From a phage, in assembly GCA_011835815.1 (NCBI GenBank), contig GCA_011835815.1_3615.1: a stretch of 64,000 nt of DNA, one strand, 5' to 3'. This document shows, in pieces, positions 3,836-51,364 of this stretch (position 1 is the first letter of the stretch; every line of letters starts with the position of its first letter). A model generated the notes under the pieces. That model searched no databases. It worked only from the letters and a program-made list of their open reading frames with translations, and was not told where the DNA came from. The translations under genes were made by a program, and so were the position numbers.

Positions 3836-4015
3836 ATGGCTATTATTGCAAAGACTGAGATCGTAGGCTTAGATTCTATTCTCCTCGCATATGAGGAAGC
3901 TATAGAAATGTATGTGGTTTCCTATGGTGAGTATATCCGTGAATATAAATCTATTGATCTGGCTTTTGAATGTTATATCCGCCAGGTTAATAAAGCGTAC
4001 GATGATTATCGTTAA
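3836..4015 (+). CDS. hypothetical small protein (59 aa, below ORF-track cutoff)
   Basis: ATG with AGAGGA SD downstream of a TTGACA promoter; translated by hand, in-frame stop at 4013. Confidence 0.45.
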   Translation: MAIIAKTEIVGLDSILLAYEEAIEMYVVSYGEYIREYKSIDLAFECYIRQVNKAYDDYR

Positions 4016-4021
4016 AATAGT

Positions 4022-4050
4022 TTGACAACAGCCATCTTACAAAGCATAAT
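4022..4050 (+). promoter_or_regulatory. sigma70-like promoter
   Basis: TTGACA-N17-CATAAT. Confidence 0.45.
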
Positions 4051-4102
4051 ACATAAGGCGGTGGAATGGTCCGCCACCTGGAACAAAGAAGAGGTAAACA
4101 CC

Positions 4103-4348
4103 ATGAAAAGCAATAAAGGTTATAACGGTTACAAAAACAAAACTCATTGGAATGTAAGCCTTTGGATTAATAACGATGAGTCATTGTACCGGTTGGCCCA
4201 AGGCTTTATTAACGCCAATGCTAATCGTAATGATGCGGCGCGGGATATGATGCTTTTTCTGGAGCTAACCGGACAAGATAAGACCCCGGACGGCTTCAAG
4301 TACAGCACTACGGCGATCCGTGCCGCGATGGTTGGAATGAAACACTAA
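4103..4348 (+). CDS. hypothetical early protein
   Basis: ATG at 4103 with GAGGT SD (track ORF starts at TTG 4022). Confidence 0.5.
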   Translation: MKSNKGYNGYKNKTHWNVSLWINNDESLYRLAQGFINANANRNDAARDMMLFLELTGQDKTPDGFKYSTTAIRAAMVGMKH

Positions 4349-50337: not shown

Positions 50338-50366
50338 TTGACAAACTTTGCTTAACAGTGTAATAT
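50338..50366 (+). promoter_or_regulatory. sigma70-like promoter for the tRNA cluster
   Basis: TTGACA-N17-TAATAT about 60 bp upstream of the first tRNA. Confidence 0.55.
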
Positions 50367-50424: not shown

Positions 50425-50499
50425 GCCCTGTTAGCTTAGTGGATAAAGCAGCGGCCTTCTAAGCCGTTGACACTGGTTCGAGTCCAGTACGGGGTGCCA
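50425..50499 (+). tRNA. tRNA-Arg (anticodon UCU)
   Basis: Hand-folded cloverleaf: acceptor GCCCTGT/ACGGGGT, anticodon loop CTTCTAA, T-loop GGTTCGAGTCC, encoded CCA. Confidence 0.75.
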
Positions 50500-50629
50500 A
50501 GTTCTTTTTAATGTAGCTTACTTTAGCAGAGTAAATCTTCGGCAAGTGGCGGTAACCACTTTACCGATACCTCATAGTTAGTGGTGAGAACACTAGCTAT
50601 TTTAAAAAGAATTTAAATATTAGTATTTA

Positions 50630-50717
50630 GGTGAGTTAATTCCGTAGGGGTAGCGGGGCAGACTGTAAATCTGTTATCATTGCGATTCGGGTGGTTCGAC
50701 TCCATCACTCACCACCA
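50630..50717 (+). tRNA. tRNA-Tyr (anticodon GUA), class II
   Basis: Acceptor GGTGAGT/ACTCACC, anticodon arm GCAGA-CTGTAAA-TCTGT, long variable arm, T-loop GGTTCGACTCC, CCA; D-arm register uncertain. Confidence 0.65.
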
Positions 50718-50821
50718 AATTTATATTTTTAAATGCATAAATCATACAGATAATGGCATTGATATTTATCGTCGTTTATACTAGTCACTAACTGCTCGAA
50801 AATCAGTGTCATTATCAGTAT

Positions 50822-50912
50822 AATTTATAAAGGAGGGTAGGGAGCAATGGTGCTCAAGCGGTCTTGAAAACCGCCCCGTTGAGGATGACTCGATGATGGT
50901 TCGATTCCATTA
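50822..50912 (+). tRNA. tRNA-Ser (anticodon UGA), class II
   Basis: Acceptor GGAGGGT/ACTCTCC, anticodon arm GCGGT-CTTGAAA-ACCGC, long variable arm, T-loop GGTTCGATTCC, CCA. Confidence 0.65.
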
Positions 50913-51020
50913 CTCTCCGCCACATTGTTGACCTTGTAATTAAGCGAAAGCCGGAAGCAGAACCGGATTATCAAATGTTACAGTCGTCATCGCCGACTAG
51001 CAACATGGTCAACATACTGA

Positions 51021-51119
51021 GCTAGGTAAGCCCTTTGGCAAGGGCGAGGATTTTTAATCCTGAAAATAGACGAGGTAGTCGTTGAATACATAGGTGGTTC
51101 GATTCCATCGCCTAGCACC
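51021..51119 (+). tRNA. atypical tRNA-like gene (about 97 nt), anticodon possibly UUU (Lys)
   Basis: Perfect acceptor GCTAGGT/GCCTAGC, D-arm GCCC-TTTGGCAA-GGGC, anticodon-like hairpin GAGGA-TTTTTAA-TCCTG, canonical T-arm; but about 30 nt inserted between anticodon stem and T-stem. Confidence 0.4.
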
Positions 51120-51124
51120 TTTTT

Positions 51125-51200
51125 GCTGATGTAGCACAATCGGTAGTGCAATTGATTTGTAATCAATAGGTTGTAGGTTCAAGTCCTGCCATCAGCACCA
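51125..51200 (+). tRNA. tRNA-Thr (anticodon UGU)
   Basis: Acceptor GCTGATG/CATCAGC, D-stem GCAC/GTGC, anticodon arm ATTGA-TTTGTAA-TCAAT, T-loop GGTTCAAGTCC, CCA. Confidence 0.75.
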
Positions 51201-51201
51201 A

Positions 51202-51276
51202 GGCCCTGTAGCTGGAAGGTTCAAGCAAGCGACTCATAATCGCCAGACGGTGGTTCAATTCCACCCAGGGCCACCA
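51202..51276 (+). tRNA. tRNA-Met or Ile2 (anticodon CAU)
   Basis: Acceptor GGCCCTG/CAGGGCC, anticodon loop CTCATAA, T-loop GGTTCAATTCC, CCA; not initiator-like. Confidence 0.7.
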
Positions 51277-51287
51277 AATAGTAAATA

Positions 51288-51364
51288 CTCCGCGTAGCTC
51301 AGCTTGGTAGAGCGCCTGATTTGGGATCAGGAGGTCGAGTGTTCGAATCACTCCGTGGAGACCA
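51288..51364 (+). tRNA. tRNA-Pro (anticodon UGG)
   Basis: Acceptor CTCCGCG/CGTGGAG, D-stem GCTC/GAGC, anticodon arm CCTGA-TTTGGGA-TCAGG, T-loop GTTCGAATC, CCA. Confidence 0.75.

What the first reader, a model, noticed from the sequence alone, without database searches (positions are those of the whole stretch)
51021..51119. Atypical tRNA-like gene with a roughly 30-nt insertion, possibly a Lys(UUU) variant
This element has a perfect 7-bp acceptor stem, a canonical D-arm, a T-arm with GGTTCGATTCC and a hairpin with loop TTTTTAA (anticodon UUU if read conventionally), but about 30 extra nucleotides lie between the anticodon stem and the T-stem. Host tRNA-Lys(UUU) is the target of anticodon nucleases such as PrrC, and T5 is reported to carry a tRNA-Lys that is not cleaved by the PARIS effector (from memory). 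A structurally unusual phage Lys-like tRNA could be a resistant substitute, a decoy or a pseudogene.
Basis: partly seen in the sequence, partly recalled or inferred. Interest (0 to 1): 0.6.

Follow-up and report, generated by a model that had tools for sequence, protein, structure and literature searches.

The report
Conserved non-decoding tRNA-like phage RNA
The odd "tRNA-Lys" in this rV5-like coliphage belongs to a conserved, so far undescribed family of tRNA-shaped small RNAs in rV5-like phages that keep the tRNA body but have no conserved anticodon, so it is probably a tRNA mimic rather than a decoder.

Summary
Window 51021-51119 (+) folds into a five-arm cloverleaf with a ~30-nt region between the anticodon-like arm and the T arm. 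ARAGORN calls it "tRNA-???" and the Rfam tRNA model scores it 29.4 bits against a cut-off of 29.

The window is an rV5-like Vequintavirus, not T5.

I collected 29 distinct homologues. They come from five genera of Vequintavirinae, from Stephanstirmvirinae, from one Schitoviridae phage and from metagenomes. None turned up in bacterial genomes, 5,426 E. coli genomes or plasmids.

- **Structure is selected.** 98.7% of helix cells pair, and 14 of 22 pairs show compensatory double changes. These include the tertiary elbow pair G19:C56, which switches to U19:A56.
- **The "anticodon" loop is not conserved.** It reads UUUUA, UUAUA, CAUCCA or CAUCAAA and is 5-7 nt long.
- **The insertion flanks are almost invariant.** They read GAAAA(U)A and AAUACAUA.
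- **Relatives keep real Lys tRNAs.** PVP-SE1 carries genuine tRNA-Lys genes alongside its copy of the element.

So this is neither the Lys tRNA of these phages nor a pseudogene. It is a non-decoding tRNA-like RNA of unknown role, similar in kind to the T4 and T5 "stable RNAs" but not homologous to them. Only in the rV5 clade does the loop copy the tRNA-Lys(UUU) anticodon arm (GA-UUUUUAA-UC, plus A73). A decoy role against Lys-specific anticodon nucleases therefore remains an open, untested possibility.

The parts
51021..51027 (+). Acceptor stem, 5' strand (GCUAGGU)
   Evidence: Pairs with 51110-51116. Five of its 7 pairs show compensatory double changes across 29 homologues.
51028..51029 (+). 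Positions 8-9 (AA). A8 is invariant in the family, where ordinary tRNAs have U8.
   Evidence: Invariant column in A1, A2 and A3. It sits opposite invariant U14, a swapped 8:14 pair. That pairing is my inference.
51030..51045 (+). D arm GCCC-UUUGGCAA-GGGC. The loop carries invariant U14 U15 U16 G18 and the elbow base G19.
   Evidence: Three of 4 stem pairs have compensatory changes. G19 covaries with T-loop position 56 (GC 20, UA 9).
51046..51046 (+). G26, invariant hinge base
   Evidence: Invariant in the alignments.
51047..51061 (+). Anticodon-like arm AGGAU-UUUUA-AUCCU. It can also be read as AGGA-UUUUUAA-UCCU.
   Evidence: The stem covaries: 30:39 is UA 12, CG 9, AU 8; 31:38 is CG 13, UA 10, other 6. 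The loop is 5-7 nt and not conserved across the family.
51062..51068 (+). 5' linker GAAAAUA. Single-stranded and near-invariant.
   Evidence: GAAAA is conserved in 28 of 29 members.
51069..51083 (+). Variable-arm hairpin GACGA-GGUAG-UCGUU
   Evidence: Part of the minimum-free-energy fold. Every member has a hairpin here, 3-8 bp long, with unrelated sequences. rV5 to Av-05 shows an A-U to G-C compensation.
51084..51092 (+). 3' linker GAAUACAUA. Single-stranded; AAUACAUA is invariant except in the PD06 group.
   Evidence: The PD06 group has AAAUACGAAAUA.
51093..51109 (+). T arm GGUGG-UUCGAUU-CCAUC
   Evidence: Canonical T loop. 51:63 covaries (UA 24, CG 5), as does 49:65 (GC 27, UA 2). C56 changes to A56 together with G19 to U19.
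51110..51116 (+). Acceptor stem, 3' strand (GCCUAGC)
51117..51119 (+). Discriminator A73 plus CC. The final A of CCA is not encoded. UUUUU follows, and tRNA-Thr starts at 51125.
   Evidence: Most relatives encode U73-CCA.
50338..50366 (+). Promoter-like site TTGACA-17-TAATAT upstream of the tRNA cluster. A second site lies at 50796-50824, before tRNA-Ser.
   Evidence: Consensus scan. rV5's GenBank record annotates a P(tRNA) promoter at the equivalent place. Consensus match only; not shown to be active.

Best explanation
The element is a gene for a small, stable, tRNA-shaped RNA that does not decode.

**Maturation (inferred).** It is transcribed on the + strand as part of the phage tRNA cluster. 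It is probably cut out by the host tRNA-processing enzymes: RNase P at G1, then 3' trimming. In this phage the CCA-adding enzyme would then complete the encoded ACC.

**Fold (shown by covariation).** It adopts a tRNA-like L shape. The acceptor stem, D arm, T arm and the G19:C56 elbow contact are all under selection. The arm in the anticodon position is a short hairpin with no conserved triplet. Between it and the T arm lies an extra hairpin flanked by two nearly invariant single strands, GAAAAUA and GAAUACAUA.

**Function (inferred).** I think it works as a tRNA mimic. The acceptor/elbow half would let it engage a protein or complex that recognises tRNAs. The invariant linker module would give the specificity. 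The most plausible arena is the conflict over tRNAs between phage and host, either by titrating or blocking a tRNA-directed nuclease or toxin, or by engaging a tRNA-processing factor.

**The Lys-like loop.** It is a derived feature of the rV5/Av-05 branch, not the ancestral or defining feature of the family.

**Shown:** the gene, its strand, the fold, the selection on it, its restriction to phages and the lack of a conserved anticodon.
**Inferred:** expression, processing, the absence of decoding and the mimic mechanism.
For: **Detection.** ARAGORN and Rfam both find it. The minimum-free-energy fold is the five-arm cloverleaf, z = -3.36.

**Distribution.** The 29 distinct homologues come from Vequintavirus, Avunavirus, Seunavirus, Mydovirus and Henunavirus, from Stephanstirmvirinae (PD06-like), from one Schitoviridae phage, and from viral and metagenome contigs. 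They always lie in a tRNA cluster on the tRNA strand.

**Covariation.**
- 98.7% of cells are paired.
- 14 of 22 pairs have double-sided changes.
- 0 of 500 shuffles reach the observed values.
- Controls with partners slid by 1-3 columns pair only 30-44% of cells.
- The tertiary pair 19:56 is GC in 20 sequences and UA in 9.

**Strand.** G·U pairs fix the RNA on the + strand: 50:64 is G·U in 14 sequences and 7:66 is U·G in 6.

**Constraint on the mature RNA.** Within Vequintavirus the mature RNA is nearly invariant while the leader and trailer vary.

**No decoding signature.**
- The loop is variable in length and sequence.
- ARAGORN fails on 23 of 25 members, and its intron mode gives inconsistent isotypes.
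- The PVP-SE1 copy does not reach the Rfam tRNA score; its best hit is tRNA-Sec at 27 bits against a cut-off of 47.
- PVP-SE1 also carries bona fide tRNA-Lys(UUU) and tRNA-Lys(CUU) genes.

**Restriction to phages.** There were no true hits in 185,579 species genomes, in 5,426 E. coli genomes or in plasmids.

**Neighbourhood.** The region in relatives holds RNA ligase 1, a phosphoesterase and NAD-salvage genes. That fits an auxiliary or counter-defence region, but this is my inference.
Against: - No expression, end-mapping or aminoacylation data exist for any member. I found no paper describing it.
- No partner protein is identified and no gene co-occurrence was found.
- The invariant linkers match no RNA motif I could name.
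- V18 and JES2013 have lost the element along with neighbouring tRNAs. It is therefore dispensable, at least under laboratory conditions.
- Encoded U73-CCA in most members is equally compatible with aminoacylation and a non-ribosomal use of the charged RNA.
- In the rV5 clade, UUU plus A73 would fit lysyl-tRNA synthetase identity rules. That statement rests on my memory of those rules.
Confidence: 0.6

Rival explanations
1. In the rV5 clade the tRNA-like chassis has been turned into a mimic of the tRNA-Lys(UUU) anticodon arm. It would act as a decoy or competitive inhibitor for Lys-specific anticodon nucleases (PrrC, RloC, PARIS AriB), sparing host tRNA-Lys.
For: - Read as a 4-bp stem with a 7-nt loop, the arm is GA-UUUUUAA-UC. 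That is identical to E. coli tRNA-Lys(UUU) at positions 30, 31 and 33-40 (the E. coli sequence is from memory).
- It contains the UAAUC motif at the AriB cleavage site, with C41. C41 also occurs in the weak target tRNA-Asn, and the cleavage-impairing Mut2 change is A41 to C (PMC12409363).
- U16 is present in the D loop, and AriB needs U16.
- The discriminator is A73 in this clade only.
- rV5-like phages with six tRNAs carry no ordinary tRNA-Lys.
- Relatives encode an RNA ligase 1 homologue.
Against: - The sister clade Av-05 has UUUAUAA and U73 or C73.
- The family's ancestral loop is unrelated.
- The homologous structural alignment favours a closed U31-A39 pair and a 5-nt loop.
- The phage's own tRNA-Thr(UGU) still carries the host-type UAAUC|A site, so there is no sign of general adaptation to AriB.
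- No experimental data exist.
- I could not test the 10-of-11 match against the full host tRNA set.
Confidence: 0.15
2. It is a working, structurally unusual tRNA-Lys(UUU) that decodes AAA/AAG.
For: - The loop is UUUUUAA with U33 and A37, and the discriminator is A73.
- Rfam's tRNA score sits just above the cut-off, 29.4 against 29.
- Several GenBank records annotate it as tRNA-Lys.
- No other tRNA-Lys exists in the cluster.
Against: - The anticodon stem would be only 4 bp, or would lack position 26. That puts the anticodon one base pair out of register.
- The loop-closing positions covary as a pair in the family.
- Homologues with an almost identical body have 5-6-nt loops with no usable anticodon.
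- ARAGORN cannot assign an anticodon.
- A8/U14 replaces the universal U8/A14.
- CCA is not encoded.
- The 31-nt variable region has long single strands, unlike any class II tRNA.
Confidence: 0.07
3. It is a decaying tRNA pseudogene, or the 3' half of a tRNA joined to unrelated sequence.
For: It has odd features: a borderline tRNA score, no complete CCA and no clear anticodon. Some relatives have deleted it.
Against: - 14 of 22 helix pairs show compensatory changes, and 98.7% of cells are paired across subfamilies.
- The single-stranded linkers are invariant.
- The body is more conserved than its flanks.
- It persists across two subfamilies of rV5-like phages and in a Schitoviridae phage.
Confidence: 0.03
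4. It acts in cis on the tRNA operon. It would be a processing punctuation mark for RNase P and RNase E. In the rV5 clade, where UUUUU follows the acceptor/T helix, it might also act as a partial terminator.
For: - It always sits between tRNAs, directly after the CCA of the preceding tRNA plus 2-5 nt in most phages.
- The terminator-like scan flags 51091-51114 followed by a U run.
Against: - A punctuation role needs only an acceptor/T minihelix. It does not explain the conserved D arm, the elbow pair, the extra hairpin and the invariant linkers.
- The U run is confined to the rV5 clade.
Confidence: 0.08
5. It is aminoacylated by a synthetase that ignores the anticodon, in the way class II tRNAs are recognised. 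The charged RNA would serve a non-ribosomal reaction or bind EF-Tu.
For: - Encoded U73-CCA, invariant C2:G71 and near-invariant G1:C72.
- A class II-like extra arm.
- The T arm and elbow are intact.
Against: The acceptor and discriminator do not match the E. coli identity sets for Ser (G73, G2:C71), Leu (A73, A14), Ala (G3:U70) or Tyr. Those identity sets are from memory. The rV5 and Av-05 clades have lost the encoded CCA and vary the discriminator (A, U or C).
Confidence: 0.07

Closest known systems
Canonical bacterial and phage tRNAs (Rfam RF00005), especially class II tRNAs with a long variable arm
   Same: 7-bp acceptor stem, 4-bp D stem, G18G19 in the D loop, a canonical T arm (GGUUCGAUUCC), the G19:C56 elbow pair, a discriminator plus CCA in most members, an extra arm between the anticodon arm and the T arm, and a location in a tRNA cluster.
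   Different: - No conserved anticodon; the loop is 5-7 nt.
- A8/U14 and U15/A48 replace U8/A14 and R15/Y48.
- The extra hairpin is flanked by 6-7-nt and 9-10-nt invariant single strands.
- Most members fall below the Rfam tRNA cut-off and are missed by ARAGORN.
T4 species 1 and 2 RNAs (rnaC, rnaD) and the T5 stable RNAs (RNA1 and RNA2, annotated 'tRNA-like stable RNA with unknown functions'; RNAI, RNAIII, RNAIV)
   Same: They are small RNAs encoded inside a virulent phage's tRNA cluster, on the tRNA strand, about 100-145 nt long. Some have an acceptor stem and T arm, and their function is unknown (annotations; sequences).
   Different: Not homologous. The covariance model R1 does not hit any of them at E up to 10 and finds only ordinary tRNAs, at under 27 bits. 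T5 RNAI lacks a T arm. T4 rnaC is 139 nt with a different insert.
T5 tRNA-Lys(UUU), the PARIS-resistant viral tRNA (PMC11464382, PMC12409363)
   Same: A phage-encoded RNA carrying a UUU loop. In the window's copy the motif at the AriB site (UAAUC|C) differs from the host's (UAAUC|A) at position 41, one of the positions that makes T5 tRNA-Lys resistant.
   Different: T5 tRNA-Lys is a normal 78-nt decoding tRNA with a 5-bp anticodon stem, a 7-nt loop and a short variable loop. The element is not. Its Lys-like loop is confined to one clade.
YrlA / bacterial Y RNA-like RNAs (RF02553) and tmRNA tRNA-like domains
   Same: Non-decoding RNAs that imitate part of a tRNA and are handled by tRNA enzymes.
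   Different: No Rfam match of YrlA or tmRNA to the element and no tmRNA call from ARAGORN. The ends of YrlA lie in the Ro-binding helix, not in an acceptor stem. This last point is from memory.

Membership tests
Canonical decoding tRNA (RF00005) | 7-bp acceptor stem, D arm, T arm with a GTTCRANYC-type loop, and the G19:C56 elbow pair | tested here: met
   Covariation supports all four elements.
Canonical decoding tRNA (RF00005) | 5-bp anticodon stem with a 7-nt loop (U33, purine 37) and an anticodon conserved among orthologues | tested here: not met
   The loop is 5-7 nt and unconserved. Position 33 would be A in the CAUCAAA group. The loop-closing positions covary as a pair. ARAGORN of 25 members, both with an undefined 4-base anticodon.
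Canonical decoding tRNA (RF00005) | Score at or above the Rfam gathering cut-off (29 bits) | tested here: inconclusive
   The window copy scores 29.4 bits. The PVP-SE1 copy gets no tRNA hit; its best match is tRNA-Sec at 27 bits against a cut-off of 47.
Canonical decoding tRNA (RF00005) | U8 and A14; a variable region of 4-5 nt or a class II arm with short linkers | tested here: not met
   A8 and U14 are invariant. The variable region is 29-40 nt with long invariant single strands.
tRNA-Lys(UUU) | Anticodon UUU and discriminator A73, conserved among orthologues | tested here: not met
   Present only in the Vequintavirus clade. Av-05 has UAU with U73 or C73, and the others have U73 with no UUU. 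PVP-SE1 has separate true tRNA-Lys genes.
tRNA-Lys(UUU) | Charged by lysyl-tRNA synthetase and active on the ribosome | not testable with these tools
   Needs charging assays or tRNA sequencing.
tRNA-Sec (RF01852) | 8/5 or 9/4 acceptor/T geometry, UCA anticodon, score at or above 47 bits | tested here: not met
   The geometry is 7/5. The score is 27 bits at best. UCA can be read in the CAUCAAA loops only with A33 and a 4-bp stem.
tmRNA | tRNA-like domain plus a tag reading frame; G3:U70 | tested here: not met
   ARAGORN finds no tmRNA. The 3:70 pair is C-G, U-A or A-U, never G-U.
T4 rnaC/rnaD and T5 stable RNAs | Sequence and structure homology to those RNAs | tested here: not met
   R1 does not match them at E up to 10. 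The test was one-way: no model of those RNAs was built.
T4 rnaC/rnaD and T5 stable RNAs | A stable small RNA accumulating in infected cells, encoded in the tRNA cluster | not testable with these tools
   The location criterion is met. Accumulation needs RNA data.
YrlA (RF02553) | Match to the Rfam model; a Ro-binding helix at the RNA ends | tested here: not met
   The only weak YrlA hits fall elsewhere: 25 bits at 51229-51341 across tRNA-Met/Pro and 19.9 bits at L012:1401-1460, against a cut-off of 69.
Intron-containing tRNA | A consistent canonical tRNA once a segment is removed | tested here: not met
   ARAGORN in intron mode gives Gln, Leu, Pro, Met, Ile, Thr or Asn with different 'introns', or nothing, across 25 members.

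The most novel reading that the evidence does not exclude
rV5-like phages carry a dedicated non-decoding tRNA mimic that acts as an RNA anti-defence factor. In the E. coli-infecting Vequintavirus clade its anticodon-like arm has been remodelled to copy the tRNA-Lys(UUU) anticodon arm (GA-UUUUUAA-UC with C41, plus A73). It could then soak up or jam Lys-specific anticodon nucleases such as PARIS AriB, PrrC or RloC. Other clades would aim the same chassis at other tRNA-directed factors through their own loops and the invariant linker module.
Probability: 0.15. Interest if true: 0.8.

Novelty: new variant of a known kind. Interest (0 to 1): 0.55.

Why it matters
- **Annotation.** More than a hundred GenBank phage records either miss this gene or label it tRNA-Lys, tRNA-OTHER, tRNA-TERM or tRNA-???. 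Counts of phage tRNA genes and codon-compensation analyses for rV5-like phages, including the BASEL collection phages, therefore contain a false Lys tRNA.
- **Biology.** It is a clean case, with strong covariation, of a tRNA-derived RNA that kept the tRNA body, lost decoding and gained an invariant module. This is the same unexplained class as the T4 and T5 "stable RNAs", known for about 50 years.
- **Tractability.** tRNAs are now recognised as major targets of bacterial immunity (PARIS, PrrC, retron Ec78). rV5-like phages are easy to handle in the laboratory. This family is therefore a practical way to ask whether phages use tRNA mimics, and not only spare tRNAs, in that conflict.

Tried and rejected
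1. **Homology to T5 and T4 stable RNAs.** The covariance model R1 finds only ordinary tRNAs there.
2. **Intron-containing tRNA.** ARAGORN in intron mode gives inconsistent results.
3. **Kissing interaction between the anticodon-like loop and the variable-arm loop.** It was suggested by UCCA/UGGA in PVP-SE1 and GCCA/UGGC in 4MG. Complementarity is no better than in shuffles for nearly all 25 members.
4. **Antisense target for the invariant 3' linker in the window.** The only match to its reverse complement is the element itself.
5. **Bacterial, prophage or plasmid copies.** Two pattern scans of species genomes gave 0 hits and 17 chance hits, none passing R1. There was no BLAST match in E. coli genomes or plasmids.
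6. **Rfam families other than tRNA.** None matched at E up to 10.
7. **Literature.** I ran eight valid searches (one search was rejected for a too-short term). None returned a description of this RNA.
8. **A second weak R1 hit in the window, 3981-4086, 18.9 bits.** It partly overlaps an ORF and I judged it to be chance.
10. **Co-occurring protein gene.** None is evident. The only copy outside the rV5-like subfamilies, in Schitoviridae UTK0002, sits among tRNAs only.
Full report
**1. What is at the coordinates**

Window 51021-51119 (+) reads GCUAGGU-AA-GCCC-UUUGGCAA-GGGC-G-AGGAUUUUUAAUCCU-GAAAAUA-GACGA-GGUAG-UCGUU-GAAUACAUA-GGUGG-UUCGAUU-CCAUC-GCCUAGC-A-CC. The acceptor stem is 7 bp, though its last pair is U·G. 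The region between the hairpin and the T stem is 31 nt. The final A of CCA is not encoded, and five U's and then tRNA-Thr follow.

ARAGORN reports "tRNA-??? (atcc)" at exactly these coordinates. Rfam's tRNA model gives 29.4 bits against a gathering score of 29, and no other family matches at E up to 10. The minimum-free-energy fold is a five-arm cloverleaf, -34.4 kcal/mol, z = -3.36.

**2. Context**

The window is not T5. The tRNA cluster region is 97-99% identical to rV5-like coliphages of the genus Vequintavirus.

| Coordinates | Feature | Source |
|---|---|---|
| 50425-50499 | tRNA-Arg | |
| 50630-50714 | Tyr tRNA, seen only by Rfam | |
| 50832-50922 | tRNA-Ser | |
| 51021-51119 | the element | |
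| 51125-51200 | tRNA-Thr(UGU) | |
| 51202-51276 | tRNA with CAU anticodon | |
| 51288-51364 | tRNA-Pro | |

A promoter-like site precedes the cluster.

GenBank records treat the element inconsistently. It is unannotated in rV5. Elsewhere it is called tRNA-Lys (the BASEL phages among others), tRNA-OTHER, tRNA-TERM or tRNA-???(atcc).

**3. Relatives**

BLAST, pattern scans and a covariance model (R1) recovered 29 distinct sequences:

- Vequintavirus and Avunavirus (Av-05)
- Seunavirus (PVP-SE1, 4MG and Cronobacter phages)
- Mydovirus (Klebsiella and Raoultella phages)
- Henunavirus (an Erwinia phage)
- Stephanstirmvirinae (PD06-like phages)
- one Schitoviridae phage, Salmonella vB_SenP_UTK0002
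- viral and metagenome contigs

Every copy lies in a tRNA cluster on the tRNA strand. Outside the rV5 clade it is almost never annotated. There, ARAGORN does not call it (2 of 25 members called) and Rfam's tRNA model does not reach threshold.

I found nothing in one genome for each of 185,579 bacterial and archaeal species, in 5,426 complete E. coli genomes or in plasmids. V18 and JES2013 have deleted it together with neighbouring tRNAs.

**4. Evidence that the fold is selected**

On the model-based alignment A3, the four cloverleaf helices plus the tertiary pair 19:56 are paired in 98.7% of cells. Fourteen of the 22 pairs have changes on both sides. No shuffle of 500 reaches these values, and sliding the partners by 1-3 columns drops pairing to 30-44%.

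The independent MAFFT alignment A1 gives the same picture: 99.2% paired and 11 of 22 compensatory pairs.

| Pair | Pair types observed |
|---|---|
| 3:70 | C-G 14, U-A 8, A-U 7 |
| 13:22 | C-G 17, G-C 10, A-U 2 |
| 30:39 | U-A 12, C-G 9, A-U 8 |
| 19:56 (elbow) | G:C 20, U:A 9 |

The elbow result means the D loop and T loop still dock as in a real tRNA.

Frequent G·U pairs (50:64 in 14 sequences, 7:66 in 6) fix the transcript on the + strand. Within Vequintavirus the mature sequence is almost invariant while the leader and trailer differ. This rules out a pseudogene.

**5. Why it is not a Lys tRNA**

- **The loop varies.** It is UUUUA in Vequintavirus and UUAUA in Avunavirus. Seunavirus and Mydovirus have CAUCCA, CCUCAA, CAGCCA, CCUCCA or CUUCCA. 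The Erwinia phage, the Schitoviridae phage, the PD06 group and some metagenome copies have CAUCAAA or UAUCAAA. An anticodon loop is normally the most conserved part of a tRNA.
- **The loop-closing positions pair.** The two positions that would be 32 and 38 of a 7-nt loop covary as C-G or U-A. The homologous reading of the window's copy is therefore a 5-bp stem with a 5-nt loop. Reading it as UUUUUAA requires a 4-bp stem, which puts the anticodon out of register.
- **The discriminator differs.** Most members end in U73-CCA. Only the Vequintavirus clade has A73, and it has lost the full CCA.
- **Real Lys tRNAs coexist with it.** PVP-SE1 carries ordinary tRNA-Lys(CUU) and tRNA-Lys(UUU) genes as well as the element.
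- **No intron model fits.** ARAGORN's intron mode gives no consistent alternative tRNA.

**6. What is conserved instead**

Besides the tRNA core, the core has swapped tertiary bases: A8 with U14, and U15 with A48. The most constant parts are the two single strands flanking the extra hairpin. These are GAAAA(A)U(A) on the 5' side and (G/U)AAAUACAUA on the 3' side.

The hairpin between them is always present. It varies from 3 to 8 bp and has unrelated sequences, with compensations such as A-U to G-C between rV5 and Av-05.

I found no loop-loop pairing, no antisense target in the window and no named motif for the linkers.

**7. Mechanism**

Shown: this is a phage-restricted, strand-specific RNA gene under structural selection. 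It has a complete tRNA upper half and elbow and no conserved anticodon.

Inferred: the RNA is released from the tRNA precursor by RNase P and 3' trimming, with CCA completion in this phage. It acts as a tRNA mimic, and its specificity lies in the invariant linker module.

The target is unknown. Three things make a tRNA-directed host defence, toxin or processing factor the most plausible class of partner:

- the counter-defence flavour of the neighbourhood in relatives, which holds RNA ligase 1, a phosphoesterase and NAD salvage genes
- the current evidence that tRNAs are prime immune targets (PMC11464382, PMC12409363, PMC10264068)
- the precedent of non-decoding tRNA mimics

I put 0.6 on this composite statement. 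Confidence is about 0.95 for "real structured RNA family" and about 0.85 for "not a decoding tRNA-Lys".

**8. The Lys-like loop**

In the Vequintavirus clade the arm, read with an open U31-A39 pair, is GA-UUUUUAA-UC. That is identical to E. coli tRNA-Lys(UUU) at 10 of 11 positions (the host sequence is from memory).

PARIS AriB recognises U36-A-A-U-C and cuts between positions 40 and 41. The element has UAAUC|C. This is the variant seen in the weak target tRNA-Asn, and an A41-to-C change impairs cleavage.

Together with A73 and the absence of an ordinary tRNA-Lys in six-tRNA rV5-like phages, this keeps a decoy reading alive for this clade at about 0.15. Four observations weigh against it:

- Av-05 has UAU and U73 or C73.
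- The structural alignment favours a closed loop.
- The phage's tRNA-Thr(UGU) retains the host-type AriB site.
- Nothing has been tested experimentally.

**9. Comparison with known RNAs**

In kind it resembles the T4 species 1 and 2 RNAs and the T5 "tRNA-like stable RNAs with unknown functions" (annotations). The model R1 does not match any of them, and their architectures differ. By the tests in the membership table it is not tRNA-Sec, tmRNA or YrlA.

I found no publication describing it in eight valid full-text searches. I rate it a new variant of a known kind: a tRNA-derived stable RNA of a phage tRNA cluster, with its own architecture and strong comparative support.

**10. Limits**

The pattern scans required exact matches to conserved motifs, so more distant members may exist.
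- Alignment A3 was fitted to the model's structure, but the MAFFT alignment agrees with it.
- The shuffle control ignores phylogeny. The slid-partner control, and the number of independent pair types, address that only in part.
- There are no expression data.

Noticed in passing
window 50500-50629 (+): A 130-nt stretch lies between tRNA-Arg and the Tyr tRNA. It is absent from rV5 itself. It is conserved and never annotated in 177 phage records. These include some Vequintavirus, Phapecoctavirus and Justusliebigvirus, Certrevirus PBES02, and T5-like Salmonella phages Spc35 and S124, but not T5 proper. Six diverged copies share a 13-bp closing helix plus three hairpins, with 5 pairs showing compensatory changes. 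It has no Rfam match. It looks like a second, non-tRNA-like structured RNA of phage tRNA clusters.
   Followed up: partly
window 50923-51020 (+): The 98-nt spacer between tRNA-Ser and the element folds into an 8-9-bp closing helix (UGUUGACC/GGUCAACA) with three internal hairpins. It is cloverleaf-like but has no T loop. Matches were seen only in rV5-like contigs.
   Followed up: no
window 50630-50714 (+): A Tyr(GUA) tRNA is detected by Rfam at 39 bits but missed by ARAGORN. It has 3 extra bases after position 9. It is annotated tRNA-Tyr in relatives.
   Followed up: no
window 51202-51276 (+): The tRNA with a CAU anticodon is annotated tRNA-Met in most records but tRNA-Ile (AUA) in the BASEL phages. 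Whether it is an elongator Met or a lysidine-dependent Ile tRNA was not resolved.
   Followed up: no
window 51125-51200 (+): The phage tRNA-Thr(UGU) carries U36-A-A-U-C|A41. This is the same motif as the E. coli tRNA-Lys and tRNA-Thr sites cut by PARIS AriB. By that criterion it is not an escape variant.
   Followed up: no
L071:14773-14858 (Salmonella phage PVP-SE1): The annotated tRNA-Lys(UUU) gt009 is 86 nt long, with a D loop of roughly 20 nt. It is another structurally unusual tRNA in this phage group.
   Followed up: no
L012:1622-2484 (PVP-SE1) and L003:1600-1960 (Av-05): About 860 nt after the element carry no annotated gene or tRNA, and Rfam finds nothing there. A tRNA-like start (GTGCATTAGCTCAGATTATTTGA, or GTGTATTAGCTTATATTATTCGA) recurs just downstream of the element in Seunavirus and Avunavirus copies.
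   Followed up: no
L021:1503-1610 (Salmonella phage vB_SenP_UTK0002, Schitoviridae): This N4-like podovirus carries a copy 88.5% identical to that of an Erwinia Henunavirus, within its own tRNA cluster. This implies horizontal transfer of the element between unrelated phage families.
   Followed up: partly
L020:1107-1499 (Raoultella phage Ro1); also Escherichia phage 241Ecol014PP (H5): HNH endonuclease genes are inserted in the tRNA cluster. In Ro1 the insertion lies immediately upstream of the element.
   Followed up: no
GenBank MG0656xx 'Campylobacter phage' records (H20, H24-H28, H41-H43): About 18 records labelled as Campylobacter jejuni phages are 98-100% identical to rV5-like coliphages over this region. 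They are probably mislabelled or contaminant sequences.
   Followed up: no
window 3981-4086 (+): A weak hit of the family model (18.9 bits, E about 0.009) contains AAAATAG and AATACATAAGG-like strings and partly overlaps an ORF at 4022-4348. I judged it to be chance.
   Followed up: partly
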